From IMG/VR virus record IMGVR_UViG_3300027908_000022, positions 1,572 to 65,571 of that record: a stretch of DNA of 64,000 bases. One strand, 5' to 3'. Position 1 is the first letter of the stretch; each line of letters opens with the position of its first letter. This document shows, in pieces, positions 1-63,448 of this stretch. The stretch comes from a virus. The notes under the pieces were generated by a model. It saw nothing but the letters and a program-made list of their open reading frames with translations, had not been told where the DNA came from and ran no database searches. The position numbers and the translations under genes are program-made.

Positions 1-3000
1 GTCGTCGAGGACGAGGGCGTCCTCTTCGTGCCGAACACGCAGATCGAGGACTTCCTGCCGACGCAGGCGCTCTATCTCCAGCGCATGAGCGTTCCGCACA
101 AGGCCATCGCGCTTCCCGATAGCGTGCGCATCGTCGTCCGGGCGAATGACGTTTATTGTCCGCCCTACGACGTGCATCGGCCGCTGCTCGAGAGCGGGCG
201 CGCGGCGCTGGTCGCGAACACCAGGTGGCAAGCCGATCTCTTCGGGTTCGCCAAGGAGCGGATCGTCATCTCGCCGATGCTCGATCCGGTGCCATTGGTC
301 GGGAAGACTCAAAGACTTTTCGTTTACGCGTCGGGTCCCATGAAGGGCCTCGAGGCCACGCTGGCCATGTGGCGGCTCCTCTGGCGGATGCACCCATCGA
401 TGATGAATGGATCGCAGCTCGTCATCATTTCGCCAGGTTGGGGGGATTTCTCTGGCGTGCCCGAAATCGATCGCGAAATCGGGGTCCGCTTCGAGGGAGC
501 GCCGACGCCTGAGAAATATCGCGAATGGATCGCCCGGGCCGAAGGCATCTTCTTTGTCAACACGATGCCCGAGACGTTCGGCAATGTGTGCGCCCTGGCC
601 GAGTGCTCGCGGACGCGAACACACGTTCTCTGCCGGACCGGCATCGCGGGACTGGCGGAGGCCGTGGCCCAGCGCGAGCTCATCACGGAATCGCAAGAGG
701 CGTTCGTCAATGGATTCTTCAGGTATCTCGGCCAGCCGACCGACGACTTCAAGTGGACCCCGGTCCGCGCTCGGAGCCCCGAGGCCATCATGCCGGAATG
801 GGAGAAGGCGCTCGAGCTGACGCCACCGAAGAAGGCGACGAAGGGCAAGGCCCGGAAGAAGTCGGCCGAGACGGCGCTGCCTGCCGGGCCGCTACCGCGC
901 GCGCCGACGGACACCTCGGACCACGCCGCGCTCTACAGCCAGTTCAAAGAGGCCCTTCTCTCGCTCGGCGATCCGGTCGGCAACGTCACGAGCTACTGGC
1001 GCGAACGCGCCGCGGCGCAAGCCGAGTTTGCGCGCACCAAGCCGGTCGAGGACTTCCTCGCGTGGTCCGACGACGTGGACATGCACGAGCTCGACCTGTT
1101 CACGCCGTGGTATCGCGCGCTCCAGGCCTCGCCGCAGTGGGATCGATGGAAGCGGCTCAGTCGCAAGGCGCAATACGGCAAGCCGCACGCGTTCTCGCTC
1201 GACGAGGGCACCTCGCCCGTCGGTCTGCAGCACGCCTATCACCTGATGTGCTACGAGCAGATGACCGGAGCGCGGTTCCTCGACGGCGTCCAGACGATCG
1301 TCGAGGTCGGCGGCGGATACGGAAACTTTGCCCGTATGCTCCGCGAAGATGGGTTCCGCGGGACGCACGTCATCATCGACTTGCCGCAGACGCGCGAGTT
1401 CCAGAAGCTTTATCTCGGCCTGAACGGCATTCGTACCTCGACGTGCGGTCTTCTGCGGGGTGACTTTCGCTCGAACCTGATAGTCGACGGCGTCAACCTG
1501 GTTCTCGAGGAGGACATCCCGGACGTTCTCCGCCGGCTCGGCGACAAGACGAAGGGCGTCGCGTTCGTCGCTACGTGGAGCCTCAGCGAGACGCCGCTCG
1601 CGTTCCGGAGCAAGCTCTTCCCGGCGCTCTTCGACAAGTGCGGCAAGTACCTGATGGCCACCCAGTGGCCTCAGCACCATACCGACGGTATCGCGAACGA
1701 CGAATACTTTACGCAGTTCATGAAGGCCGCCACGGCAGCTCGTCCCGAGCTCGGATGGCGAACGGCGGTCATCGACCATCACCCGGGATCGCGATACCTC
1801 TTCGCAGGCGAGAAGCTGACGGCGCAATCGGTCGAGCAGACCTTCGCCGATGATCCGTCGCTCGCCTCGAACAAGGAGCCCATGGGTCCTTTCTTCGGGG
1901 ACTTCCTGTCGCTCCTGCGCGGCGCCATCGCGCCCGGCGGGTCCGAGCTCGGCGTCGGCCTCACGCTCTTCTCCTTGGCGGCATCCATTCGCGCGGCGAA
2001 CATCGTCGAGATCGGCCGCTTCAAGGGGTTCTCGACGCTCGCGCTCGCGGCGGCCTGCAAGCTCCAGGCGATCGGCTGGAGGGAAGGGGCCGGAGCCGAG
2101 CAGCGTCCGGACGTCGATTACGCGAAGCTCCTCGGTGAGCGCGATCGCAAGGTCATCTCGATCGATCCCAGCCCGACGCGGGAGGCCGACGAGCTTATCC
2201 GCAAGGCCGGGCTCGAGCCCTACGTGGCGAAGATCGACAAGGCCTCGGGCGACGTGTCGCTCGATCTTCCGATCGACCTGCTCTTCATCGACGGCTCGCA
2301 CATGATCGGGGACGTCCAGCGCGACGTGCAGAAGTACGTTCCGCTCGTCCGGCCGGGCGGATACTTCGTGATGCACGACTATTACGGCTGGTTCCAAAAC
2401 GGCAAGAACGGCAGCCCCATCGCGCGAGTCATCGAGGAAGACCTCGGGGGCTTCGAGCGCGTGCTCATCGACACCGGGTTCGCGAGCATGATGGTCTTCC
2501 GCAACACCGCGACCCTCGAGGCGCGGCCCGAACCTGTGCCGAAGCGCGCGGACGGGCGGCCGACGGTGGGGCTCGTCGTCATCGCCAAGGGCGACGAGGC
2601 GAGCACGGTGATCGCGCGCGCCATCGTGTCGGCCAAGAAGATCGGGGTCGACTGCACGACCGTCGTATGCGACGCCCAGGACAAGGTCGCCGAGGTCTCA
2701 CGACACCTCGGCGCGGATGTCTTCATCCGGCCGAGCCCGAAGGTCGATTGGGAGCAGGGCTACGGCGTCATCGCCGGCGCGCGCAACGAGGCGCTCAAGA
2801 TCGCCGAGCGCCGGACGGATTACGTCCTGCTCATCGATGCCGACGACTGGATCGAGGGAGAGCTCCCGAAAGAGCTGACGGCCGACGGCTACGAGATGCT
2901 CGTCTACGACGGCGGCATGGTCTACCCGCGCATCCAGCTATTCCGCGCCGGCCGCGGCTTCCGGTTTCATGGCATCCGGCACGAGCACCTCGTGATGGGC

Positions 3001-3651
3001 GGCAAGATCGAGCGCACCGGATCGCTCCGGTACTACCGCGGCCATTCGAGCTACGGATTCCAGGACCAGGATCCGCCGGAGGTCAAGTACAGCAAGCACG
3101 CCAAGGACTTGACGAAGTGGCTCATCGACCACCCGGACGATGCGCGCGCGCAGTTCTATCTCGCGCGGAGCTACCAGGATGCGGGCCGCGTGGCGGAGGC
3201 CATCGTCGCGTATGAGAAGCGGCTCGCCATGACGAACGGCTGGGACGAGGAGCGGTTCTACAGCGCATTCCAGATCGGCCTGATGGCCATGCGCAAGGGG
3301 GAGGATCCGACGCAAGCGCTCCTCCGCGCCCACGAGATCCGGCCGACCCGCGCCGAGCCGCTCGTCGTCTTGGCCCAGTGGCACCGCGACGAGAAGCGCA
3401 AGCACTTCTCGACGGCGTACGCGTTCGCGCGGCGGGCCGCAGCGATCCCCATGCCGAATGACGGGCTCTTCATGCAGGCCGCGATCTACGAGTTCGAGGC
3501 CATTGCCGAGCTGGCCATCTGCGCGTACTGGGTCGGCAACAAGGCCGAGAGCCTCGAGATATTCCGGAAGATCGCCGCGACATGCGCGCCCCACCGCAAG
3601 GAATGGGCCGACAATATGGTCGCGATGTGTGCTAGAGAAGTGGCTGCATGA
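1..3651 (+). CDS. Multidomain glycosyltransferase-like / sugar O-methyltransferase / Methyltransf_24 / GT2-TPR fusion (probably 5'-partial)
   Basis: 1207-aa ORF from 28, frame open back to base 1. SAM motif VEVGGGYG; LFIDGSH..D..YVPLVRPGGYFVMHDY; GT2 DxD motif YVLLIDADD followed by TPR-like helices (RAQFYLARSYQDAG). Confidence 0.75.
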   Translation, partial: VVEDEGVLFVPNTQIEDFLPTQALYLQRMSVPHKAIALPDSVRIVVRANDVYCPPYDVHRPLLESGRAALVANTRWQADLFGFAKERIVISPMLDPVPLVGKTQRLFVYASGPMKGLEATLAMWRLLWRMHPSMMNGSQLVIISPGWGDFSGVPEIDREIGVRFEGAPTPEKYREWIARAEGIFFVNTMPETFGNVCALAECSRTRTHVLCRTGIAGLAEAVAQRELITESQEAFVNGFFRYLGQPTDDFKWTPVRARSPEAIMPEWEKALELTPPKKATKGKARKKSAETALPAGPLPRAPTDTSDHAALYSQFKEALLSLGDPVGNVTSYWRERAAAQAEFARTKPVEDFLAWSDDVDMHELDLFTPWYRALQASPQWDRWKRLSRKAQYGKPHAFSLDEGTSPVGLQHAYHLMCYEQMTGARFLDGVQTIVEVGGGYGNFARMLREDGFRGTHVIIDLPQTREFQKLYLGLNGIRTSTCGLLRGDFRSNLIVDGVNLVLEEDIPDVLRRLGDKTKGVAFVATWSLSETPLAFRSKLFPALFDKCGKYLMATQWPQHHTDGIANDEYFTQFMKAATAARPELGWRTAVIDHHPGSRYLFAGEKLTAQSVEQTFADDPSLASNKEPMGPFFGDFLSLLRGAIAPGGSELGVGLTLFSLAASIRAANIVEIGRFKGFSTLALAAACKLQAIGWREGAGAEQRPDVDYAKLLGERDRKVISIDPSPTREADELIRKAGLEPYVAKIDKASGDVSLDLPIDLLFIDGSHMIGDVQRDVQKYVPLVRPGGYFVMHDYYGWFQNGKNGSPIARVIEEDLGGFERVLIDTGFASMMVFRNTATLEARPEPVPKRADGRPTVGLVVIAKGDEASTVIARAIVSAKKIGVDCTTVVCDAQDKVAEVSRHLGADVFIRPSPKVDWEQGYGVIAGARNEALKIAERRTDYVLLIDADDWIEGELPKELTADGYEMLVYDGGMVYPRIQLFRAGRGFRFHGIRHEHLVMGGKIERTGSLRYYRGHSSYGFQDQDPPEVKYSKHAKDLTKWLIDHPDDARAQFYLARSYQDAGRVAEAIVAYEKRLAMTNGWDEERFYSAFQIGLMAMRKGEDPTQALLRAHEIRPTRAEPLVVLAQWHRDEKRKHFSTAYAFARRAAAIPMPNDGLFMQAAIYEFEAIAELAICAYWVGNKAESLEIFRKIAATCAPHRKEWADNMVAMCAREVAA

Positions 3652-4879: not shown

Positions 4880-7276
4880 ATGCAGGTCATTGAGCTCGGC
4901 GGCGTATCCGGCGTCGGCGGCTTGCCGGTTACGCACGGCCTCGGCCCGAGCGGCACCGGGATATTCGTCTCGGGTGATCAGCAGCTCGCCGGCTTCGAGC
5001 AGTCCGCCGTCGTCGCATTCACGGCCCCGCAAGGCATCGCGTCTTGGGGTTGGTTGCTGTCGACCGACAATTTCACTGAGCGCCGCAAGCGCAAGTGGAA
5101 GATGCAGTGGGAGCGCGAGGAAGAATCCAAACAGCAACGCAAGAAAGACCGCGAGAAAAAGCGGAAGCTCGAAGAGGCCGCGCGCGCCGCGGCAGCCGAG
5201 AAATCAAGGGGTGACGCGGCCCATACGTGGCTATTGCCCACACCGGATCCGCAGCCGGTCCGTGTACAACCGCCGCCGCCCCCTGTTTTTACATCCGTCC
5301 GATCTTTCCTCCCGGGGCTTTCCCAGACGGGTCGCGCCGGCGCGCGGCCCCCGCTCCGGTTCGGACTCGGCCGGTCCCGGCTGGGAGGGTTTGGGCAAAA
5401 GTCCGAGCTCGGATTCACCCCCGAACGCCGCGTAACGATTCAGCTCACGCTCGCAGGCTTCGGCCAGGCTGGGACGGTTTGGGAAGAAGTCCCCGTCTTC
5501 CCGGCTCGAGCGTACCAGGAGCTGGCCGGGCTCCGCGCGCGCGGCGCACTCCACCGCGAGCGGCCCGGGTTCCCGATCGCCGGCCGGAGCGCCCTGCCTG
5601 GCTTCGCCCAGCGCCACTACGGCCATGTCGACGGCGAGACGCCCGGCTTGAGGAGCCAGCTCGAAATCGAGCGCCAGGCCCACCAGGCGGCCATGGCGCG
5701 CGCCGACGAGGCCTTGGCCAGCCACCAGGCCGAGGCCGAGGCCAAGGCCGCCCAGGAGGCCGCGGAGCGCGCCGCGCGCATCGAGCGGCTCACGGCGGAC
5801 CGGGAGCGCGAGATCGCCCGCCATCGCGTCGCCGTCATCGAGGCAGACCTCGGCCGGGCGGACGCCGAAGACGACGCGGAGATCGTGCGCACCATGTACG
5901 CCACGCTCCTCGAGGACCAGGGCTTGGCCTTCGCTCGGACGCTGGAGGCGGTCGTCATCCCCGCGCCCGTCGAGCCGCCGCGCCCCGCCGACGGGTGGGT
6001 CTTCGCCCGGGTCGAGCTCGGCCAGTTCGCCCAAGCGGCTCGAGCGGCCGTTACGGACCCGCTGGCCAACGTGACCGATGAAGAGTTCGGGGCGGTTGTA
6101 TCGAAGCCCTCCTATGTGGCCGACCGGGTGGGATCCCTCGGGGAGCCGGACGATTTGGGCGAGCCCGAGGCTCAGCCGGAAGACCTGACGCCGCCGGCGC
6201 CCGACCTGGCGGCCGTCATCCCCATCGACCGGAAGAAGCGCGAGTTCCACGAGGATCCCGTGCGCGAGGTCAGCCCGGGCCGATGGCGGTGGGGCAAGAG
6301 CGGCAAGACCTACAAATCGAAGGCAGCCGCGCAACGGCAAGCCGCGGCGATCTACGCGTCCGGCTGGCGTGGGGATGCATTGCGCGCCAAGGCCGCGCCA
6401 CTCAAGCCGAGCCCGCGCGCCGAAACACGGTACGCGTTGGACCTCCAGCAAATCATGAAGGCGGTCCATGCCGCTGCGCTGCATATCGTCCACCGGGAAC
6501 TGAAGCCGCACAAGTCGGAGCTACACCAGGACAGCATCGGCGACGCAAAAAGCCGGCTGCACAAGCTTTCGTATCAGCTGGCGCCGTGGCTGCGCATGCA
6601 CGTCGCGAACGCTTTCAACCGAATGTCCGGCGAGGTCCGCACCCATTCGGGTACAGCGGCCAAGCTGGTCGGCGTCCCTCTGCGCCAATCCTTGAGCCTC
6701 GACCGGCTGATTGACGAGACCCGTCAGGCCAACGTCAACCTGATCACGAATGCAAGCTCGACATTCCTCGACCAGGTCCGAGACGTCCTGGACGAATACG
6801 GGGATCTGCCCGCGGGCCGCGGCGCGGGCGAAGAGCGGCTCGCCGACCTCGAGGAAGGCGCCGTGCCGCGCATGCTGAGCGAGGCGCTACAGCAACGCGT
6901 GGACGTGAGCAAGAGCCGCGCGCAGACCATCGCGAGAGACCAGGTCATTCGCCTGAACTCCAAGGTTCACGAGAAGCGCGCACGGTCGGCCGGCACGACT
7001 CACTATCGGTGGTCTACTTCAAGAGATGAGCGTGTGTCCGGGGACCCGAGCGGCAAGTATCCGAAGGCCGAGCCGAGTCACTTCGATCGCGACGGGAAAG
7101 TCTTCGCGTGGGACGATCCGCCCGACGAGGACTCCTACGACGGGCACCCAGGACAGAATCGGCCGAATTGTCGATGCGTCGCGTTGCCGATTATCGACGA
7201 GCTGGAGGATGACGACACCGAGTCGGAGCCGGAGCCGGAGGAGTCGAGCGACGACGACGAAGCGGCCGAAGGCTAG
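4880..7276 (+). CDS. Phage head morphogenesis protein (SPP1 gp7 / Mu F-like C-terminus) with long N-terminal extension
   Basis: C-terminal RAQTIARDQVIRLN, HYRWSTSRDERV and HPGQ..NCRCVA motifs of the gp7/Mu F family. Confidence 0.8.
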   Translation: MQVIELGGVSGVGGLPVTHGLGPSGTGIFVSGDQQLAGFEQSAVVAFTAPQGIASWGWLLSTDNFTERRKRKWKMQWEREEESKQQRKKDREKKRKLEEAARAAAAEKSRGDAAHTWLLPTPDPQPVRVQPPPPPVFTSVRSFLPGLSQTGRAGARPPLRFGLGRSRLGGFGQKSELGFTPERRVTIQLTLAGFGQAGTVWEEVPVFPARAYQELAGLRARGALHRERPGFPIAGRSALPGFAQRHYGHVDGETPGLRSQLEIERQAHQAAMARADEALASHQAEAEAKAAQEAAERAARIERLTADREREIARHRVAVIEADLGRADAEDDAEIVRTMYATLLEDQGLAFARTLEAVVIPAPVEPPRPADGWVFARVELGQFAQAARAAVTDPLANVTDEEFGAVVSKPSYVADRVGSLGEPDDLGEPEAQPEDLTPPAPDLAAVIPIDRKKREFHEDPVREVSPGRWRWGKSGKTYKSKAAAQRQAAAIYASGWRGDALRAKAAPLKPSPRAETRYALDLQQIMKAVHAAALHIVHRELKPHKSELHQDSIGDAKSRLHKLSYQLAPWLRMHVANAFNRMSGEVRTHSGTAAKLVGVPLRQSLSLDRLIDETRQANVNLITNASSTFLDQVRDVLDEYGDLPAGRGAGEERLADLEEGAVPRMLSEALQQRVDVSKSRAQTIARDQVIRLNSKVHEKRARSAGTTHYRWSTSRDERVSGDPSGKYPKAEPSHFDRDGKVFAWDDPPDEDSYDGHPGQNRPNCRCVALPIIDELEDDDTESEPEPEESSDDDEAAEG

Positions 7277-8863: not shown

Positions 8864-8994
8864 CGTGGTCGCTCGTCTCGTTCTGGTCCTACGCCGCCCG
8901 GTGGGTGTTCGCGCCACCATCGGATGACGCTCGCTGCATTGTCCGGAGCCTCGCACAATATCACAACCTGCTGTCGCTCCCATATGAAGCTACC

Positions 8995-9021
8995 GGGACG
9001 CCCGGCTAACCCGAGCGTCCC
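8995..9021. terminator. GC-rich hairpin downstream of the small array
   Basis: GGGACGC/GCGTCCC arms plus an inner CGG/CCG pair; no U-tract. Confidence 0.3.
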
Positions 9022-9094
9022 GTGGACATCAACGCACCACACGTACCATGCGCCCATCGCGTGGCTTACGTGGACCCATTGTCCCTGATGAATT

Positions 9095-9499
9095 CTGCCG
9101 CTCCAAGCCATACTGGTCCCGCCCTTGCCTCGACTGCCTAGCCGTGCGCCGCCGCCCAATCCGGTCCTATCCCATCCTGCCCCGCCGCTCCGACGAGCCG
9201 CCTTTCCCGTCCTTTCCCTGCCTGCCGTTCCTCTCCCGTCAGACCATTCCGATCCGGTCCGTTCCATGCCTGCCCGTCCGCTCCGACCCATCCGATCCGC
9301 CCGGTCCGCTCCGGTCAATGCCAAGCCTGCCGTGCCTCGCCTGTCCGCTCGCTTCCGATCCTAGCCTGCCGAGCCGACCCAACCGATCCGATCCCTTCCT
9401 GGACTTGCCTGCCGAGCCGGTCCTGTTCCACCAGTACCCGCCTATCCTGCCACGCCCGTCCGATCCAATCCGATCCGCCACGTCCCATCCTATCCTGCC
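9095..9499 (-). ncRNA. Short GG(A/C)NN pentamer array, putative guide-RNA array (VIPR-like), ~9 segments
   Basis: Minus strand reads GGCAGG ATAGG ATGGG ACGTG GCGG ATCGG ATTGG ATCGG ACGGG CGT GGCAGG... GGCAGG separators (CCTGCC on +) at 9494, 9446, 9408, 9365, 9326, 9269, 9221 and 9176. Starts 7 nt after the stop of 9507-10139. Confidence 0.75.
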
Positions 9500-9506
9500 G
9501 AAGCTG

Positions 9507-10139
9507 TTATTCCGCCGCCTTATCTCGCATTGCCGCCCTCGACGCCTCGAACATGTCGATCGCCTCTCGCATCGAGGCCACGAAGTCGACGTAATGCTCC
9601 GGCACGTTGCTCGTGCGACACCAAAATTCGAGCTGCCGGAATGCGCCGGCGACCAGCGCAAACCGCGCCGACGCCACGCGTGACGACAGGTCGAAACGTT
9701 CCCTGGCATCGGAGGCAAGCACGTTCGTGCGGCCGCGTCTCTCCTTGCCGTCCGCATCTCGGAACGTCGGAACATCGTCGACGTTGACCAGCATTGCCTC
9801 GCCGTGCACTCCCGGGACATTGGCGGTCACGACACGAACAGACCGGATGAACTTCCGACAATATTCGAGATGGGTCATCTCGATCGCCCGCTTGTCGGAC
9901 GGCATGTAGTGCCACAGCACGCTCTCGCGATTCGCGCGCATGTACGCGTAAATCTGCTTGGCCGACACCATCGGGACGTCGACCGCATTCAGGCGGGCGA
10001 TCGCCAATAGCTCGGGCGCGATTCGATCTCGGACGTCTTCGGACGTCCACGGAAAACCGTCGGCACTCGTGATGGTGCCGAGGCGAGGAGCGCGCGCCGC
10101 TTTCTTCAGCGGCGCGGCTCCCGGCTTCGACTTCTTCAT
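9507..10139 (-). CDS. Accessory protein coupled to the RAMP-like gene
   Basis: 210 aa, ATGA overlap. SVLWHYM.SDKRAIE..HLEYCRKFIRSVRV resembles the phage family SPLH..FEWDD..AA..YRL.QAR.LIRS. Confidence 0.7.
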   Translation of the reverse strand: MKKSKPGAAPLKKAARAPRLGTITSADGFPWTSEDVRDRIAPELLAIARLNAVDVPMVSAKQIYAYMRANRESVLWHYMPSDKRAIEMTHLEYCRKFIRSVRVVTANVPGVHGEAMLVNVDDVPTFRDADGKERRGRTNVLASDARERFDLSSRVASARFALVAGAFRQLEFWCRTSNVPEHYVDFVASMREAIDMFEASRAAMRDKAAE

Positions 10140-10972
10140 TCGGCCTCAGCCTCGGCCGACTCGTCCGCTTCGTGACGACCAACGGCCCCGTTCACGGTGT
10201 TGACCGCCCCCATCGCCCTGCGCGGCATGTTCGACCGGTCCTTGTCGGCCACGATCGTGGTCGCGGCACGGAGCAGCTCCGGCGGGATCTTGAACATCCT
10301 CTCCGGCAGCGAGCAGGCCTTGACGATCGCGTCGACGCTCTTCTCGGGAAGCGCCTCGACGGTGAAGCTCCCGAGATCGCCGCCCTTCTGCTGCCGGAAC
10401 TCGCAGAGCCCGACTTCCTGGCCCGCCTGTCGCAGCGCGAGCACGATTTTCGCCGCCGGGATCACGTTGTGCGGATACCGAATGACGACGTCAATATACC
10501 AGTCGGTATAAAGGCATCGCGCGCGAACGTCCGGCACGCGATCATTCCACGGTCCGACTTCGACGATGCGCACGTCCATTTCGTGCGCGCCGTGAATCGG
10601 CGCCGTATGGCCCATGATGCGGACCTTCTGTTTGATCTCGCTGGGCTTGACGCTCTTGCCCGTGGCCGACGCGCCGCTGACGAGGCAGGCCTTGATCGTT
10701 CGGCACGGGAGCACGTGCTCGTCCTTGACGTTGCGGTAATGCGACGACTCGTATTCGCTCGTCAGGTCTTTGGGCCGTTGCGGCATGTCGTGGCCGGTCA
10801 TTCGAGAGAGCATCTCGATAACGGCTTTTTCGCTCCATTGATGAACAAGAAGCGCGTCGCCGCGAATTCGGACCGGCATGAGCGCGAGATCGCCGCTCAA
10901 CACCTGAAACGGATCGTGATTCGACTGCTCCGCGACTTCGGGCTCGTTTGCCTTCTTCTTCTTCGCTGCCAT
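10136..10972 (-). CDS. Stand-alone RAMP / Cas7-like RNA-binding protein (Vipr-like effector)
   Basis: 278 aa; GAGGA RBS before ATG 10972. VRIRGDALLVH strand, LPCRTIKACLVSG helix, DVRAR.LYTDW.IDV strand and C-terminal Gly-rich loop ALRQAGQEVGLCEFRQQKGGDLGSFTV. Confidence 0.75.
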   Translation of the reverse strand: MAAKKKKANEPEVAEQSNHDPFQVLSGDLALMPVRIRGDALLVHQWSEKAVIEMLSRMTGHDMPQRPKDLTSEYESSHYRNVKDEHVLPCRTIKACLVSGASATGKSVKPSEIKQKVRIMGHTAPIHGAHEMDVRIVEVGPWNDRVPDVRARCLYTDWYIDVVIRYPHNVIPAAKIVLALRQAGQEVGLCEFRQQKGGDLGSFTVEALPEKSVDAIVKACSLPERMFKIPPELLRAATTIVADKDRSNMPRRAMGAVNTVNGAVGRHEADESAEAEAE

Positions 10973-11041
10973 GTTCGGTTCCTCGGCCTTTCGTTTGCGC
11001 CTTGACGACGCGTTGCAAGATGTAGCAACATGGCGCGGCAT

Positions 11042-11062
11042 CGGTCAAGTATATTTTGACCG
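11042..11062. promoter_or_regulatory. Palindromic divergent promoter/operator between the RAMP gene and the long array
   Basis: CGGTCAA-GTATATT-TTGACCG, perfect 7-bp arms. Overlapping -10-like hexamers TATATT (+, 11050-55) and TATACT (-, 11053-48). Confidence 0.55.
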
Positions 11063-11068
11063 TCTCAG

Positions 11069-12882
11069 GGCAGGATGGGAACGGCGAGGACGGGTGGCAC
11101 GGAGGGAACGGGGCGCGGCAGCGGCAGGCGAGGACTGGCGAAGAGCGGACGGGACGGGACAGGAGCGTACGGGCACGGCAGGCTTGGCGACGGATGTGGA
11201 GTGGAGCGGGCAGGATGGCGCGGCAGGCTCGGATGGAATGGAGCGGATCGGGCACGGCTCGGCATGGCATGACAGGCTAGGATGGAAGTGGACGGGAATG
11301 GGCGGGCGGTGCGCGGCAGGAGCGGCAAGGACCGGACAGGTCGGCGTGGCAAGGCAGTCATGGCACGACACGGCGACGGGTGGAGCGGAAGCGCACGGCG
11401 GGGCAGTCATGGCGGTGAGGGATCGGGAAGCGACGGGTCATAATGGGCAATGCGCGGCAGCGGCAGGCAGGGAAGGGTCTGATCGGAATGGAGAGGCAAG
11501 ATCGTGGCATGGCAGGCAGGGAACGGCGTGACACGAACCGGCATAGCGTGGCCCGGCAGGCAAGGAAAGGCGCGGACGTGACGGGATCGGAACGGACCGG
11601 CACGGCCCGGCAGGATAGGCAGTGACGGATAGGGGAGCGGTCGGAGGGGAACGGCTCGGCAGGCGCGGACAGGTGACATGTGGACCGGTGGGTACGGTCG
11701 GCTCGGCATGGCAGGCAGGCAGGGACCGGACTGGATGGGACGGGAGCGGAGAGAATGGCTCGGCAGGCATGACTGGGCGGGCGTGGCTTGGCGTGGCTGG
11801 GAAGGGCAGGATAGGCGTGCACCGGATCGGATCGGCTGGGCAGGCAAGGACTGGACTGGAGCGGCTCGGCCCGGCAGGCTTGGATTGGACAGGAGAGTAG
11901 CGGACAGCGAGGCAAGGCAGGATAGGCAGGGCACGGTACGGAAGGGATCGGATCGGCTATGGCTTGGCAGGCTGGGAAGGGATCGGATTGGACAGGGACG
12001 GGATTGGCTCAGCAGGCTAGGCAGTATTGGGGTCCGGACTGGAGCGGCAGATCGTGGCAGGGCAGGCAAGGCAAGGCGAGTAGCGGCACGGCGTGGCCCG
12101 GCATGACAGGCAAGGACGGGACGGGCTCGGCGGTCACATGGCCGGGCAGTCGTGGAGAGCATGGTCGCGGCCGGAGAAGGGCTGGGTGAGCCAGGAGTGG
12201 CTTAGGACGGGATCGGACAGGCGAGGCTTGGCAGGCTGGGAAGAATATGGAACGGCAGATCATTGGAACGGCGTGGCAGGATGGGACCGCATCGGAGTGG
12301 AGTCGACAGGACTGGCAATGGCCGGGCAGGCTAGGCGGCGAGTGGCGCGGATTGGAGCGGCGTTGGCAGGATTGGAGAGGACAGGATGGGTTGGCGGGGC
12401 AAGGCTGGGCAGGATGGGACCGCACAGGACCGGAGTGGACAGGCGTGGCAAGGCTGGGCAGGCTTGGATGGTATCGGCGAAGGATGGGAGGGCGCGGTCA
12501 GGCGTGGCAGGAATGGCTGGGATCGTCACGGACGGGACGGGACGGGCGCGGACGGCAGGCGAGGAATGGTCTGGATAGGACTGGCGCGGAATGACACGGA
12601 GAGGCATGGGGCGGCAGAAGGGGAGAGGAGCGGATGTGACAGGAGCGGAAGGGCAAGTCAGGCTAGGATCGGTCGGACAGGTTGGCGCGGAATGCCAGGC
12701 AGGGATCGGACCGGGGGGATTGGGAAGGACGGGATCGGCTCGGCAGGCTAGGAGAGGAGAGAAGGAGCGGCCAGGCCGGGCAGGCAGGGCACGTCTAGGT
12801 GACACCGGAGTGCACCGGACCGGAAGGGCAGGAATGGCACGGACGGGACCGGACCGGCCGGAGAAGGGCTGGGCAGGCTCGG
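11069..12882 (+). ncRNA. Long GG(A/C)NN pentamer array, putative guide-RNA array (VIPR-like), roughly 35-40 segments
   Basis: Example 11555-11614: GGCAGG CAAGG AAAGG CGCGG ACGTG ACGGG ATCGG AACGG ACCGG CACGG CCC GGCAGG. The 5-nt phase holds between recurrent GGCA(GG) separators; extreme purine strand bias; ends at a hairpin. Confidence 0.8.
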
Positions 12883-12885
12883 ATA

Positions 12886-12919
12886 ACGCAGCGGGCGATA
12901 AGCGATTCGCCCGCTGCGT
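12886..12919. terminator. 13-bp perfect hairpin between the convergent array and terminase gene
   Basis: ACGCAGCGGGCGA-TAAGCGAT-TCGCCCGCTGCGT, directly after the array end and abutting the terL stop. Confidence 0.65.
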
Positions 12920-14427
12920 CAGATATGGCCGCCGCGCTTTCGCAACCGATCCATTGCCGAGACCCAGGTCGGGCCGCCGCGTAGCCGCGCCACGGCGAGA
13001 ACAGCGGCATCCGCCATGTCGGCGTGTCTGCCGTCTTTCGTGACCGGGGCATCGTACTTTGTCGCGCCGTTCGGCATTCGCTTGAGCCGCTTGCTGAGCA
13101 AGTCGACCCCCAGCTGTTTGATCGGCGCCAATTCGAGTTTACTGTCCAGTAGCAGGGTCCGAAAATCGGCGTGATTCTTCGCCGTCTGTTCTGTTGTGTC
13201 CCTAGACACCTGGACCGTTACGCCTTGCATGTCCCCGTGTTCGGCGATCAACGATCCGGCGAACCGGTCCGAATAGACCTCGTGGAGCTTGTACTCCCTC
13301 AAAATGGGGGCGATGTCCGCGAATACTTCGCGCGCCTTGAGCGGCGCGCCGGATGTCCCTTGCCATTCCCAGCAACCGGCGACGAAGTATTTGTCCTTGG
13401 AGCTATCTGTCACGTCTTGCCGCTTGCCGGCCACGACGAGCGACCATGCGTTGCCTGATATTCCCGGATCCATCGCTGCAACATAATCGCATAGCTGATC
13501 GTAATCCGTCATCTCCGGCGTCGGCCGCGTGGCGACGCGCACTTCCATTGCGGTCAGCCATCCCTGATCGGGATCGACGAACTCGCCGAGAACGTCCGTT
13601 TGATACGAACTGTGCGGCGCGAGCCGCTCGGCTTCGCATGCTTCCGGAGTCCAGTTGAACGGACATATCTGCGGCCCGGTCGCCCGCATGATGATGAGGT
13701 CTTTCGTCGGCTTGCCGAACGACTCCTCGACCGCGTCATAAATTGGCCCGCGCGCGGCCCACGGGCTGCTGACGGCCAAGAGCTGACCGCCGATGAGTCG
13801 CAGTCGCGCGATGACGGCGAGCCTCGAGTCGTCGAAGTTGATCACGCCGTCTTCTGTTCCCTGCATTCGACAGGCTTCGTCGAAGATGGCGGCGATCGTC
13901 CACCGCGAGACGAGCGAGGCTCCGCCCTTGCGTCCGGCGGCAATCACGATCTCGACCTGGCGCCCGTCGTCGCGTCGGATCCAGAGCCGCTCCGTCGACG
14001 GCTTCGGGTTCTTCATCAGGTATCGATTGAGGGCGCCGCCCTCACGCGTCAGTGCGCCCATGAGGTGGTCCATAATCGCGCCGGCTTTATCTTTATCCAG
14101 CGAGACGACCGACACGCGCATCGGCTCGTATCTCTTGATTTGCGGCGGCGGCTTGATCGTCAGCGCCGTATGCAGCGCGACTGCGGCCATGATCAAGCTC
14201 TTGCCCGAGCGGATCGCACCGACGAGATAGAACTCCGTCGGTCTTCCTGCGGCCTCGATGGCCTGGATGGCCTCGACGCCGCCGAACGTTTGAATGACCG
14301 TCGGGTCACTCGCCAGCTCACCGAGCCGGCTACCGTCGATCACCCTGCACATCGCCCGTTGCACCGGGCTCGCCGTCGTCAGGGCGAACGCGCGCGGGTG
14401 CGTCAGAATCGTTTCGAGCGACGGCAT
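12919..14427 (-). CDS. terL: Terminase large subunit
   Basis: Walker A GAIRSGKS, Walker B AIFDEAC, RuvC-like AAMDPG and C-terminal GRHADMADA. Confidence 0.85.
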   Translation of the reverse strand: MPSLETILTHPRAFALTTASPVQRAMCRVIDGSRLGELASDPTVIQTFGGVEAIQAIEAAGRPTEFYLVGAIRSGKSLIMAAVALHTALTIKPPPQIKRYEPMRVSVVSLDKDKAGAIMDHLMGALTREGGALNRYLMKNPKPSTERLWIRRDDGRQVEIVIAAGRKGGASLVSRWTIAAIFDEACRMQGTEDGVINFDDSRLAVIARLRLIGGQLLAVSSPWAARGPIYDAVEESFGKPTKDLIIMRATGPQICPFNWTPEACEAERLAPHSSYQTDVLGEFVDPDQGWLTAMEVRVATRPTPEMTDYDQLCDYVAAMDPGISGNAWSLVVAGKRQDVTDSSKDKYFVAGCWEWQGTSGAPLKAREVFADIAPILREYKLHEVYSDRFAGSLIAEHGDMQGVTVQVSRDTTEQTAKNHADFRTLLLDSKLELAPIKQLGVDLLSKRLKRMPNGATKYDAPVTKDGRHADMADAAVLAVARLRGGPTWVSAMDRLRKRGGHI

Positions 14428-61258: not shown

Positions 61259-61271
61259 GGTTCAAAGGTAG

Positions 61272-61345
61272 CGCGCCTGGTCGGGTTCGAACCGACGGCC
61301 ACCGGATTCTTCAGGCCCGGTGCTCTGCCGCTGAGCTACAGGCGC
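61272..61345 (-). tRNA. tRNA-Phe(GAA)-like with 9-nt anticodon loop
   Basis: Acceptor GCGCCTG/CAGGCGC, D arm TAGCTCAG..AGAGC, T loop TTCGAAC; loop CCTGAAGAA. Confidence 0.7.
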
Positions 61346-61348
61346 GTT

Positions 61349-61430
61349 TGGCTCCGACCGCATGAATCGAACATGCTCCCTCCCTCCAGCGCAAGCGCCT
61401 TCGGGTGCTCTGCCAATGAGCTAGGTCGGA
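61349..61430 (-). tRNA. tRNA-like RNA with aberrant anticodon arm, CCA encoded
   Basis: Acceptor TCCGACC/GGTCGGA-GCCA; D and T arms intact; 29-nt central region lacks a normal 5-bp/7-nt arm. Confidence 0.55.
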
Positions 61431-61435
61431 AAATG

Positions 61436-61508
61436 AGCCCCGGGACCGAGTTGAACGGCCGACCTTCGGCTTATACGGGCCGATGCTCTGACGCTGAGCT
61501 ACCGGGGC
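61436..61508 (-). tRNA. tRNA (Ile-TAT or Tyr-GTA-like) with 8-nt anticodon loop
   Basis: Acceptor GCCCCGG/CCGGGGC; stem TCGGC/GCCGA; loop CCGTATAA; variable loop AGGTC; T loop TTCAACT. Confidence 0.65.
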
Positions 61509-61517
61509 GCGGTCTCC

Positions 61518-61841
61518 TCAAGTGCGGTTCGGCACCTCCCTCAAGCAAGGCAGGCCGCCGAAATGCGGCTTGAGGAGCTTTCGCGGCCCGGGCGGGACGC
61601 CGATCGCCATGAGCTGGCCCGACCACGGCGGCGTGTCCTCGCGGATCTCGACGATCTCGAGCCCCCGCGCGCGGAGCCGCTCGGTTTGCGCGACGAGCGA
61701 GGCCTCGTCCGGCACGCACAGGAGAGCCCCATGCGTGTCGGGCGACAGGTTGCCCGGCGACGACTCTCCCGCGGCGTGAAGCACGGCCAGCGCGAGAATG
61801 TTTCTGGGCAAATCATCGCGCACCAAAATATAATGAGTCAG
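61518..61841 (-). CDS. Peptidyl-tRNA hydrolase 2-like protein
   Basis: HYILVRDDL...AVLHAAGES...L.V.DE..L...IRE....GQLMAIG..P; probable CTG start coupled to the upstream TGA. Confidence 0.7.
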   Translation of the reverse strand: MTHYILVRDDLPRNILALAVLHAAGESSPGNLSPDTHGALLCVPDEASLVAQTERLRARGLEIVEIREDTPPWSGQLMAIGVPPGPRKLLKPHFGGLPCLREVPNRT

Positions 61842-62455
61842 GACTTCAGTGGCGGCAAATCCGGAAGACTCGCGATGTATTCCAGCAATCCCTTGCTGCA
61901 CCGGAACCATTCTCCGCGTGGCCGTATTCGGTCCGCAAGAAATCGATCGTGAATCTTGACTTCTTCGCCCCGCGTCCCGCCTGTCACCTTCAGCAGGGTG
62001 ATTGCCTCGTGGTTGCCACACTGCAGGCCCTGCATTCTCGCTGCCATGCTCATTGTCGTGAAGCCGATTTTGATCGGCCCCGACGTTACCTGTATGAAAT
62101 ATATTTTTGGTCTCCCGTCCGCAGTGAACTCCGCCCGTCGCTGCCGATGCTTCGCGAGCCACTCCTCGCGATGCTGCTCCCGCCATTTCTTGGCGTCCCT
62201 GCGGCTCCTCTCGCGCTCTTTCGGCATCGCCCGGCGACCGCGCATGTATTCGGTCACCTTGGCCCGTCTGGCCTCCGGCGTCCGCTCCTCTGCTGGGAGG
62301 AGTTTCCTCCCCAATGGCTTCCCCCCGTTTCTCTTGCGGGCCTGCTTGTACCAGCGGCAGTAATCGCGGTGCTTCTGAGCGTACTCCGGATCGGCCTTCC
62401 GGCGGTTCAGCTGATACTGACGCTCGTACGAGCGCTTCTTCTCGAGGTCTCGCAT
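61838..62455 (-). CDS. GIY-YIG (T5orf172-like) endonuclease
   Basis: KIYFIQ....IKIGFT...RM..LQ.GN...E..IH..F......GEWF. Confidence 0.8.
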   Translation of the reverse strand: MRDLEKKRSYERQYQLNRRKADPEYAQKHRDYCRWYKQARKRNGGKPLGRKLLPAEERTPEARRAKVTEYMRGRRAMPKERERSRRDAKKWREQHREEWLAKHRQRRAEFTADGRPKIYFIQVTSGPIKIGFTTMSMAARMQGLQCGNHEAITLLKVTGGTRGEEVKIHDRFLADRIRPRGEWFRCSKGLLEYIASLPDLPPLKS

Positions 62456-62572
62456 CGACAGGTCCCAGCTCGGGCTGGGCGCGCCCCTCAGGCGCGGCGA
62501 TGAAGTCGGCTCAGGTCCACGGAAGACAGGATAGGACCACCCGCCGGGCCCGTCAAGGACGGGTCACTCACC

Positions 62573-62656
62573 TGGTACCCGGGGCGAGAATTGCACTCGC
62601 ATGGCCGAAGCCGCGGCGGCCTGAACGCCGTGTGTCTGCTGTTCCACCACCCGGGC
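62573..62656 (-). tRNA. tRNA-Leu(CAG)
   Basis: Stem CGGCG/CGCCG, loop TTCAGGC, long variable arm, CCA encoded. Confidence 0.9.
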
Positions 62657-62662
62657 ATTTTG

Positions 62663-62745
62663 TGGGATCGGAGGGAGTTGCACCCTCATGGCCTTTCGGT
62701 CGCCAGCACCTCAAGCTGGTGTGTCTGCTGTTCCACCACGATCCC
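62663..62745 (-). tRNA. tRNA-Leu(GAG)
   Basis: Acceptor GGGATCG/CGATCCC; loop TTGAGGT; variable arm. Confidence 0.9.
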
Positions 62746-62747
62746 GT

Positions 62748-62817
62748 TTCGGGGCCTCGGTGTCGATCCGAGCTGGCTGGGTTCAAGGCCCAGCTACCAG
62801 AGCCGCTGGAGCCCCGA
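62748..62817 (-). tRNA. tRNA-Gln(TTG), atypical
   Basis: Stem CTGGG/CCCAG, loop CCTTGAA; short D arm; T loop ATCGACA. Confidence 0.7.
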
Positions 62818-62818
62818 G

Positions 62819-62898
62819 TGCGCGAGGGGAGAATTGAACTCCCATGCCCGAAGGCGCCGGGGTTTGGGCCCGGTGTGTCTGCGTTTCACCACTCGCGC
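62819..62898 (-). tRNA. tRNA-Leu(CAA)
   Basis: Acceptor GCGCGAG/CTCGCGC; loop CCCAAAC; variable arm. Confidence 0.85.
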
Positions 62899-63024
62899 GA
62901 AACTTACTTCATGCACGCCAAGACCAGCCATAAGCCCTGTTGGCTTAGGCGTCCCGGCTGACGAAGTAGCTGCAAGCGGCTCACGAGGAGGAGCTTACGA
63001 TACGACGCGACGGCGGTCAAGTTG

Positions 63025-63107
63025 CGGAGCCAGGTGGAGTCGAACCACTCACCTTGCGGTGTCCCGGGGTAGCAACCCAGTGAGCGTCCACACGCTCGTC
63101 AGGCTCC
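63025..63107 (-). tRNA. tRNA-Ser(GCT), 8/4 fold
   Basis: GGAGCCTG/CTGGCTCC (one U-U mismatch), T stem GTGG/CCAC, loop TTGCTAC. Confidence 0.75.
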
Positions 63108-63111
63108 ATAG

Positions 63112-63194
63112 CGGAAGACGGAGTACTCGAAACTCAGCGCCGAAGCGCCCATCGGTATTCGAAGCCGCGCCGAGCCCCGCTCGGTTCATCTTCC
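63112..63194 (-). tRNA. tRNA-Ser(CGA), 8/4 fold
   Basis: GGAAGATG/CGTCTTCC, 6-bp D stem, T stem GAGT/ACTC, loop TTCGAAT. Confidence 0.75.
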
Positions 63195-63198
63195 GTAG

Positions 63199-63282
63199 CG
63201 GATAGGAGAGGTCTCGATCCCCAGCGCTTTGCGCGCCCTGCCGTTTTCAAAACGGTGCCGCACCCCGTGCGGTTTCCCATCC
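63199..63282 (-). tRNA. tRNA-Ser(TGA), 8/4 fold
   Basis: GGATGGGA/TCCTATCC, D stem CCGCAC/GTGCGG, loop TTTGAAA. Confidence 0.8.
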
Positions 63283-63283
63283 G

Positions 63284-63371
63284 TGGCGGAAGACGAGGGA
63301 CTCGCACCCCAGCGCTTTGCAGCGCCGCACCGCATTCCAAGCGGGCCCGCGCCTCGCGCGGTTCGTCTTCC
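63284..63371 (-). tRNA. tRNA-Ser(GGA), 8/4 fold, CCA encoded
   Basis: GGAAGACG/CGTCTTCC-GCCA, D stem CCGCGC/GCGCGG, loop TTGGAAT. Confidence 0.8.
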
Positions 63372-63375
63372 ATAG

Positions 63376-63448
63376 TCAGCGCCGCGGGAGTTGAACCCGC
63401 CTCGTCTTGACCCCCAGTCAAGTGCCTGGGCCGCTAGGCTAGGCGCTG
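63376..63448 (-). tRNA. tRNA-Pro(GGG)
   Basis: Acceptor CAGCGCC/GGCGCTG; stem CTTGA/TCAAG; loop CTGGGGG. Confidence 0.9.

What the first reader, a model, noticed from the sequence alone, without database searches (positions are those of the whole stretch)
11069..12882. 1.8-kb divergent array of roughly 35-40 putative guides
Seen: GG recurs every 5 nt, e.g. 11555-11614 GGCAGG-CAAGG-AAAGG-CGCGG-ACGTG-ACGGG-ATCGG-AACGG-ACCGG-CACGG-CCC-GGCAGG, which gives the NN string AA AA GC CG CG TC AC CC AC CC. The NN positions vary freely, so this is not a microsatellite. It starts 13 nt after a TATATT hexamer and ends at a 13-bp hairpin, like a dedicated transcription unit. The segment count is by eye.
Basis: seen in the sequence. 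Interest (0 to 1): 0.9.

Follow-up and report, generated by a model that had tools for sequence, protein, structure and literature searches.

The report
Phage VIPR guide-RNA array
The 1.8-kb tract of five-base GG repeats is a very large guide-RNA array of a phage VIPR system, a CRISPR-related RNA-guided DNA-silencing system first described in 2026 preprints, so it is a real and well-supported new example of a known kind, with some unusual grammar.

Summary
Window 11069-12882 (+) is non-coding, 48% G, with GG about every 5 nt. The pattern of five GG at 5-nt spacing occurs 50 times in the window against 0.5 expected, and 49 of those lie in this tract or in a second, shorter tract at 9090-9500 (- strand).

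Between the two tracts lie two genes on the - strand. Gene A (10975-10136) is a lone Cas7-like RAMP. Its family profile hits the solved SUSP1 Vipr protein at E=1.9e-15, and its AF2 model matches Csm3 at Z 11. Gene B (10139-9507) is a conserved partner, probably a vap.

This is the architecture of VIPR systems (bioRxiv 10.64898/2026.04.26.720920, .720927 and 2026.10.15.759431): Vipr coats GGY-NN pentamer RNAs, and the NN bases read DNA with a 1-nt skip.

Here positions 4 and 5 are fully variable (1.99 and 1.97 bits). About 39 + 10 units are separated by a 4-nt GGCA register break. I found no conserved 3' tail and no ribozyme. Position 3 is A or C, not a pyrimidine.

Seven related loci carry vipr homologues next to GGCAGG-punctuated arrays.

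Expression could not be tested, and no targets were found.

This scan has already reported VIPR arrays on other DNA (105 notes, at least 91 genomes).

The parts
11069..12882 (+). Array 1: long vrRNA-type array of about 371 pentamer-class units in about 39 GGCAG-delimited guide units (median spacing 48 nt). It is G-rich on the + strand and divergent from vipr.
   Evidence: Entropy at positions 4 and 5 is 1.99 and 1.97 bits. Period-3 power is 2.5. RNA fold z-score is -0.01. No Rfam family matched.
9090..9500 (-). Array 2: short array with the same grammar (85 units, about 10 GGCAG-delimited guide units). It lies on the same strand as vipr and vap, starts about 7 nt after the stop of gene B, and is probably co-transcribed with them.
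10136..10975 (-). vipr: a lone Cas7-like RAMP protein of 279 aa (PHROG 4652, no Pfam family).
   Evidence: Family profile A1 against PDB 36pp 'SUSP1 Vipr protein', E=1.9e-15. AF2 model with pLDDT 87. Foldseek top hits are Csm3 at E about 5e-7. VIA Z 11.2, 156 residues aligned, rmsd 3.3, and all top 50 rows are Cas7-type RAMPs. R153 aligns with the SUSP1 thumb residue R138; E192, F193 and R194 align with G-loop residues D177, W178 and R179.
9507..10139 (-). Candidate vap (vipr-accessory protein), 210 aa. Its start overlaps the vipr stop by 4 nt.
   Evidence: A homologous partner lies directly downstream of vipr, or after the array, in L003, L004, L005, L008, L009 and L010. No Pfam or PHROG hit. 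The model has pLDDT 72 and no significant fold match; the weak top rows (E 0.4-2) are winged-helix proteins.
10976..11068 (.). Divergent control region between vipr and array 1, containing TATATT at 11050-11055 and TTGACG at 11003-11008. These are inferred back-to-back promoters.
   Evidence: The region is 84% identical over 68 nt to the equivalent region of L004, while the arrays themselves do not align colinearly. The consensus sigma-70 scan found nothing.
12886..12919 (.). Perfect 13-bp hairpin between the end of array 1 and the stop codon of the convergent terminase large-subunit gene. It looks like a shared two-way terminator but has no T-run on either strand.
   Evidence: It is not listed by the terminator scan.

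Best explanation
The tract is the main guide-RNA (vrRNA) array of a phage-encoded VIPR system.

Shown here:
- A Vipr-family RAMP gene and a conserved partner gene sit between two non-coding arrays of GG-x-NN pentamers.
- GG is fixed and NN is free.
- The same pairing of gene and array recurs in related viruses.

Inferred by homology with the SUSP1 and P. fulva systems:
- Each array is transcribed on its G-rich strand. Array 1 would run rightwards from the divergent region at about 11000-11060. Array 2 would be the 3' end of the vipr-vap transcript.
- Vipr protomers polymerise one per pentamer, burying GG and the third base and presenting the NN pairs.
- The NN pairs read double-stranded DNA with one skipped base per pair (NNx)n, which silences genes of competing phages, satellites or prophages.

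The 4-nt GGCA unit shifts the register by -1 every 45 nt or so. I take it as the boundary between adjacent guides of about 8-10 pentamers. That would make this a tail-less 'staggered' array of about 39 + 10 guides.
For: Periodicity and entropy.

Non-coding and unstructured: period-3 power is 2.5 against 13-15 in the flanking genes. RNA fold z-score is -0.01. No Rfam hit and no ribozyme.

Vipr homology: profile E=1.9e-15 to PDB 36pp SUSP1 Vipr, with the thumb Arg and the G-loop E/F/R aligned to R138 and D177/W178/R179. The fold matches Csm3 (Cas7) at Z 11.2.

Comparative evidence: vipr homologues of 35-85% identity in L003, L004, L005, L006, L007, L009 and L010/L011 all have GGCAGG-punctuated pentamer arrays beside them.

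Guide variability: the L004 Vipr is 84% identical and the control region is conserved, yet the array content is not alignable. This is the behaviour expected of hypervariable guides.

No self-targets above the shuffled-guide level, as published.

Phage context: terminase and head genes are present, and no cas genes or CRISPR repeats.

Published mechanism: 10.64898/2026.04.26.720920 and .720927.
Against: Position 3 is A or C (T 3%). The published SUSP1 pocket sterically excludes purines.

There is no conserved 3' tail or pseudoknot like that of type II vrRNAs.

Twenty per cent of units lack GG.

No canonical promoter or terminator was found.

The single-sequence match to SUSP1 Vipr is not significant (E=1.3); only the family profile is.
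Confidence: 0.88

Rival explanations
1. The arrays are decoy or sponge RNAs, not working guides. They would soak up or redirect the Vipr of competing elements, as satellite-encoded solo vrRNAs do in E. coli.
For: The third VIPR preprint shows standalone vrRNAs that redirect a rival's Vipr. Array 1 has its own divergent control region. No target was found for any guide tried.
Against: The locus carries its own intact vipr and a conserved partner gene. Array 2 lies on their transcript strand. NN positions are at maximum entropy and non-redundant, which a simple sponge would not need.
Confidence: 0.06
2. The tract is a DNA-level element such as a packaging (pac) site, a replication origin, or an R-loop or G-quadruplex-forming region next to the terminase gene. 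It would be read as DNA by a protein rather than transcribed into guides.
For: It lies directly downstream of the terminase large-subunit gene. It has a strong strand asymmetry in G.
Against: In relatives the arrays travel with vipr, not with terminase. L001 has a large ORF directly upstream of vipr with no array between them, whereas L003, L005-L007, L009 and L010 have arrays flanking vipr on its own strand. The G-rich strand always fits the GG grammar of an RNA bound by a RAMP.
Confidence: 0.03
3. The tract is a decaying or runaway-expanded remnant of a VIPR array that is no longer functional.
For: Twenty per cent of units lack GG, and several stretches of 85-170 nt have no clear GGCAGG boundary. 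The size far exceeds the four vrRNAs of SUSP1.
Against: The 5-nt register and the GG content are kept over 1.8 kb, and at 95% GG-start in the 84%-identical relative L004. vipr and vap are intact. The discovery paper notes frequent internal degeneracy in working vrRNAs.
Confidence: 0.03

Closest known systems
VIPR systems with 'staggered' vrRNA arrays (discovery preprint 10.64898/2026.04.26.720920, text and legend of fig. S18)
   Same: It has a lone Vipr RAMP plus an accessory gene in a virus. The arrays are contiguous pentamer repeats without ribozymes. Adjacent guides abut, and the described 1-nt overlap fits the 4-nt GGCA unit that shifts the register by -1 here.
   Different: I could read only the legend, not the figure, so identity of architecture is inferred. 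The third base here is A/C rather than pyrimidine. The locus holds about 49 guides in two oppositely oriented arrays, one of them 1.8 kb with its own control region.
Type II VIPR of Escherichia phage SUSP1 and the Pseudomonas fulva prophage (Vipr + vap1 + vrRNAs; cryo-EM entry 36pp; 10.64898/2026.04.26.720927)
   Same: The Vipr proteins are homologous (profile E=1.9e-15), with the thumb Arg and the G-loop acidic/aromatic/Arg triad conserved. The pentamer code has GG fixed and NN free. There are guides on both sides of the genes. No self-targets were found.
   Different: SUSP1 Vipr is 202 aa; this one is 279 aa, with a C-terminal helical extension. SUSP1 has four vrRNAs of about 100 nt, each with 9-16 GGY-NN repeats and a conserved pseudoknot tail. 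Here there is no tail, units are about 45 nt, and the grammar is GG(A/C). Gene B has no detectable similarity to anything named.
Cas7 backbone subunits of class 1 CRISPR effectors (Csm3/Cmr4, type III and VII)
   Same: It has the same RAMP fold: RRM core, G-loop and thumb (Z 11.2, 156 residues aligned). The RNA is bound in a periodic register by a protein filament.
   Different: There are no CRISPR repeats, no other cas genes, and no Cas10 or nuclease. The period is 5 nt with 3 bases buried, rather than 6 nt with 1 flipped. Sequence identity is only 10-14%.

Membership tests
VIPR system | A Vipr protein: a minimal RAMP (RRM core, G-loop, thumb) homologous to characterised Viprs | tested here: met
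   Profile of 87 family members against PDB 36pp_D SUSP1 Vipr, E=1.9e-15. AF2 model with pLDDT 87. Csm3/Cas7 are the top fold matches, at Foldseek E 5e-7 and VIA Z 11.2. The single-sequence phmmer search alone gives only E=1.3.
VIPR system | Conserved GG-contacting residues (SUSP1 thumb R138; G-loop D177, W178, R179) | tested here: met
   In the HMMER alignments R153 aligns with R138, and E192, F193 and R194 align with D177, W178 and R179. R153 is invariant and R194 nearly invariant in 87 homologues. These are conservative substitutions, and the equivalence rests on alignment only.
VIPR system | Tandem pentanucleotide repeats with invariant GG and hypervariable NN | tested here: met
   86% of units are 5 nt and 80% start with GG, against 19-25% in control regions. 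NN entropy is 1.99 and 1.97 bits. There are 50 matches to the five-GG pattern against 0.5 expected.
VIPR system | Third repeat base is a pyrimidine (GGY) | tested here: not met
   Position 3 is A .46, C .39, G .11, T .03 in array 1 and A .57, C .30 in array 2. The same A/C grammar is seen in L004, L005 and L006. L003, L007, L009 and L010 are C/T. The discovery paper allows 'a related consensus' and lists NNNGG repeats, so this does not exclude membership.
VIPR system | An accessory vap gene next to vipr, in a minimal two-gene locus without cas genes or CRISPR repeats | tested here: met
   Gene B overlaps the vipr stop, and homologues accompany vipr in six other loci. No CRISPR-like repeats. 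The neighbours are terminase and head genes. Whether gene B belongs to vap1-6 could not be tested.
VIPR system | vrRNAs are expressed, are about 100 nt or less, and co-purify with Vipr | not testable with these tools
   This needs RNA data or an experiment. The only runs holding this DNA are DNA runs.
VIPR system | Guides match natural targets under the 1-nt skip rule, with no self-targets | tested here: inconclusive
   There are no self-matches above shuffled guides in the 104-kb genome. In the small local set, skips of 0, 1 and 2 nt give the same best-match fraction. The target searches that gave nothing are listed under Tried and rejected.
Type II VIPR (SUSP1 clade) | An invariant 3' tail of about 40 nt with a pseudoknot after each repeat tract | tested here: not met
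   Units are separated only by GGCA(G). The consensus around boundaries shows nothing conserved beyond GGC..GGCAGGC. The RNA folds no better than shuffles, z -0.01.
Ribozyme-interspersed VIPR arrays | Hammerhead ribozymes between guides | tested here: not met
   Rfam found no ribozyme in 8900-13000 at the gathering threshold, and none at E<=1.
CRISPR-Cas class 1 | A CRISPR repeat-spacer array plus several cas genes | tested here: not met
   There are no direct repeats of CRISPR type. Only one RAMP gene is present, and the flanking genes are phage structural and packaging genes.

The most novel reading that the evidence does not exclude
This sub-clade of Vipr proteins reads a changed scaffold code, GG followed by A or C rather than by a pyrimidine. 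It uses tail-less guides of about 45 nt that are delimited only by a 4-nt GGCA register slip. This lets one phage carry about 49 different guides, possibly the largest VIPR repertoire seen.

The switch between A/C and C/T has happened more than once among close relatives. The third-base pocket would therefore be evolutionarily tunable, and might insulate a phage's guides from a rival's Vipr.
Probability: 0.35. Interest if true: 0.55.

Novelty: new member of a known kind. Interest (0 to 1): 0.4.

Why it matters
VIPR is a months-old discovery, characterised mainly in two type II systems with a handful of guides each. This locus shows how far the design can be stretched in nature:
- about 49 non-redundant guides in 2.2 kb;
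- no tail or ribozyme between guides;
- a purine-tolerant third position, which conflicts with the purine-excluding pocket seen in the SUSP1 structure.

It is a good test case for three questions: how tail-less arrays are cut, what sets the third-base specificity, and whether scaffold grammar isolates competing VIPR systems from one another.

It also gives an annotation. PHROG 4652 ('unknown function') and a family of about 900 Pfam-less protein clusters are Vipr proteins.

Tried and rejected
Coding region: rejected. There is no period-3 signal, the ORFs in all six frames are short, and the 5-nt period is incompatible with codons.

Microsatellite or simple tandem repeat: rejected.

Known RNA family or ribozyme: none found.

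Before the Vipr hit I considered a TRAP-like ring-binding RNA, a CsrA sponge, Chi-like arrays, a rut site, an Ig-switch-like R-loop origin and a pac site. All were dropped because the arrays follow vipr in relatives, not the terminase gene.

Similarity to known phages: none in the phage collection, by DNA or by TerL protein.

Expression: no RNA holder is listed. The only holders are two soil-metagenome DNA runs, which may be the source.

Target search:
- Exact (NNx)n scans of viral contigs with four guides of 18-22 specified bases gave 0 hits each.
- A 16-base core in genome contigs gave 120+ hits. That is chance level: about 280 are expected for 596 Gb, and only 1 of the 120 extended over all 4 further positions.
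- The own genome and all fetched loci gave nothing above shuffled guides.
- Decoding guides to peptide motifs gave nothing I could recognise.

Gene B fold: no PDB match at E<=0.001. The winged-helix rows at E 0.4-2 are only a hint.

Residues explaining A/C versus C/T grammar: 15 alignment columns separate the two groups, among them S100, G106, K115, I137 and V150 next to the thumb Arg. With only 8 related sequences this is a lead, not a result.

Broader locus collection: the metagenome scan returned one locus.

Full report
**1. The observation**

Window 11069-12882 is 48% G. Its GC skew is +0.37 to +0.44 and falls to about 0 at both edges. GG recurs at lag 5 (2.5x) and lag 10 (2.0x) and is strongly avoided at lags 2-3.

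The pattern of five GG at 5-nt spacing occurs 50 times in the 64-kb window, against 0.51 expected from dinucleotide-preserving shuffles. Forty matches lie in this tract on the + strand and nine in a second tract, 9156-9476, on the - strand. The last one (44055) lies inside an ORF and is a chance match. A scan of the whole 104-kb contig found only these two arrays, apart from a poly-G run at the contig's start, which I take for an artefact.

A phase-aware parse gives 371 units in array 1: 318 of 5 nt, 44 of 4 nt, 6 of 6 nt and 2 of 3 nt. Eighty per cent begin with GG, against 19-25% in control regions.

Entropy by position:
- Position 3: 1.55 bits (A .46, C .39, G .11, T .03).
- Position 4: 1.99 bits.
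- Position 5: 1.97 bits.

**2. What the tract is not**

- It does not code for protein. Period-3 power is 2.5, against 14.9 for the terminase gene and 13.2 for gene A. The ORFs in all six frames are short.
- It is not a microsatellite. TRF finds only short fragments, and NN strings of different units are no more alike than after shuffling.
- It matches no Rfam family and has no ribozymes.
- As RNA it folds no better than shuffles, z -0.01.

**3. Context**

The contig is a phage from a soil metagenome. It carries a terminase large subunit at 14427-12919 (-), a Mu-F-like head morphogenesis gene and a tRNA cluster.

Between the two arrays lie two overlapping genes on the - strand: gene A (10975-10136, 279 aa) and gene B (10139-9507, 210 aa). 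Array 2 follows gene B on the same strand. Array 1 is G-rich on the opposite strand and diverges from gene A across a 93-nt intergenic region.

**4. Gene A is a Vipr**

Gene A has no Pfam family and matches only PHROG 4652, 'unknown function'. An exhaustive HMMER search found 902 representative clusters at E<=1e-3.

- A profile of 87 of these hits PDB 36pp, 'SUSP1 Vipr protein', at E=1.9e-15. The next hits are Csm5 RAMPs.
- The AF2 model (pLDDT 87) matches Csm3/Cas7 subunits first in Foldseek (E about 5e-7) and in VIA-align (Z 11.2, 156 residues, rmsd 3.3). All 50 top rows are Cas7-type RAMPs.
- The ESM Atlas structure search also lists Cmr6 and Csm4 families.
- In the HMMER alignments the invariant R153 aligns with the SUSP1 thumb residue R138. 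E192, F193 and R194 align with G-loop residues D177, W178 and R179. In the cryo-EM work these are the residues that hold the two guanines.

**5. The literature**

Three 2026 preprints describe VIPR systems. A lone, ancestral RAMP (Vipr) and an accessory gene (vap), mostly in phages, are flanked by vrRNAs made of 9-16 YNNGG repeats. Vipr polymerises one protomer per repeat and buries GGY. The NN pairs read dsDNA with a 1-nt skip, forming an R-loop triplex and silencing transcription of competing phages and satellites.

The discovery paper names seven types. It also lists 'staggered arrays with overlapping vrRNAs', in which adjacent vrRNAs overlap by 1 nt; ribozyme-interspersed arrays; and alternative NNNGG, YNNNG and NNNNG repeats.

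**6. Comparative support**

Homologues of gene A at 35-85% identity were fetched with their flanks. L003, L004, L005, L006, L007, L009 and L010/L011 all carry pentamer arrays punctuated by GGCAGG every 45-75 nt beside the gene. L001 and L002 lack an array upstream, but their contigs end at or just after the gene.

In L004 the Vipr is 84% identical and the divergent control region is 84% identical over 68 nt. The array itself cannot be aligned colinearly and shares no guide with ours. This is the behaviour expected of hypervariable guides.

A homologue of gene B accompanies vipr in six of these loci. Its fold is not recognisable (pLDDT 72, no PDB match at E<=0.001); the weak top rows are winged-helix proteins.

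**7. Anatomy of the arrays**

GGCAG occurs at 39 separate sites in array 1 (median spacing 48 nt) and at 10 in array 2 (median 43 nt). The consensus around a boundary is GGC..GGCAGGC..GGA..GGA.

The boundary is a 4-nt GGCA unit that shifts the 5-nt register by -1. That explains why the whole-array Fourier power at period 5 is low while the autocorrelation is strong. It also fits the '1-nt overlap' of published staggered arrays.

I therefore read the locus as about 39 + 10 tail-less guides of 8-10 pentamers each. The guide ends are inferred, not mapped.

**8. Differences from the published exemplars**

- The third base is A or C, with T at 3%. In SUSP1 the corresponding pocket sterically excludes purines.
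- The same A/C grammar appears in L004, L005 and L006, while L003, L007, L009 and L010 are C/T. Our protein is closer to the C/T-grammar proteins (46-50% identity) than to L005 and L006 (35-36%), so the preference seems to have switched more than once.
- Fifteen alignment columns separate the two groups, including V150 next to the thumb Arg. With eight sequences this is only a lead.
- There is no 3' tail.
- The protein is 279 aa, with a C-terminal helical extension.
- The repertoire is far larger than SUSP1's four vrRNAs.

**9. Targets and expression**

No guide matches the phage's own genome above shuffled guides, as published for other VIPRs.

I found no natural target:
- Four exact (NNx)n scans of viral contigs returned nothing.
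- A 16-base core in prokaryote genomes returned chance-level hits.
- The fetched loci gave nothing, with skips of 0, 1 and 2 nt indistinguishable.

These searches allow no mismatches and cover few guides, so they say little. No RNA data exist for this DNA. The consensus scan found no sigma-70 promoter or intrinsic terminator at the array ends. Transcription of array 1 from the + strand rests on the conserved control region and on the G-strand logic.

**10. Verdict**

This is a VIPR guide array, a kind already described in print in 2026 and already met many times in this scan (105 notes in at least 91 genomes).

It is a new member of that kind. Its notable variant features are A/C at the third position, tail-less GGCA-punctuated units, two oppositely oriented arrays and about 49 guides. 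Interest is moderate.

Noticed in passing
window 61271-63448 (- strand): There is a cluster of eight tRNA genes (Phe, three Leu, Ser, Pro and two others). ARAGORN gives the two others abnormal anticodon loops (2-nt and 4-nt 'anticodons'). Rfam confirms five of the eight.
   Followed up: no
L003, L007, L009, L010 versus window, L004, L005, L006: Related VIPR arrays split into two scaffold grammars: GG followed by C/T, and GG followed by A/C. The split does not follow overall Vipr similarity. Fifteen Vipr alignment columns separate the groups, for example S100, G106, K115, I137 and V150.
   Followed up: partly
PHROG 4652 and the 902 clusters: A large, almost purely viral protein family has no Pfam model and is labelled 'unknown function' in PHROGs. 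By profile match to the solved SUSP1 Vipr, it is the Vipr RAMP family.
   Followed up: partly
L005:5690-5830: A small ORF lies between vipr and its array in this relative. By eye it looks like a ribbon-helix-helix DNA-binding protein. In that locus the gene B homologue lies after the array instead of before it.
   Followed up: no
window about 11416-11450 (+) and about 9168-9202 (-): One guide in array 1 and one in array 2 share 11 of 14 NN positions. This is the only near-duplicate pair found, and it is near chance level (about 0.1 expected). They might address variants of one site.
   Followed up: no
G000 contig start (outside the window, bases 1-24): The contig begins with a run of 24 G, which is probably a sequencing or assembly artefact. 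Both contig ends lie in GGC-rich, Gly-rich coding repeats, so the genome may be incomplete or circularly permuted.
   Followed up: no
window 28-3651 (+) and 4880-7276 (+): A 1207-aa ORF combines a Methyltransf_24 domain, TPR repeats and a glycosyltransferase-like region. A 798-aa ORF ends in a Mu-F-like head morphogenesis domain.
   Followed up: no
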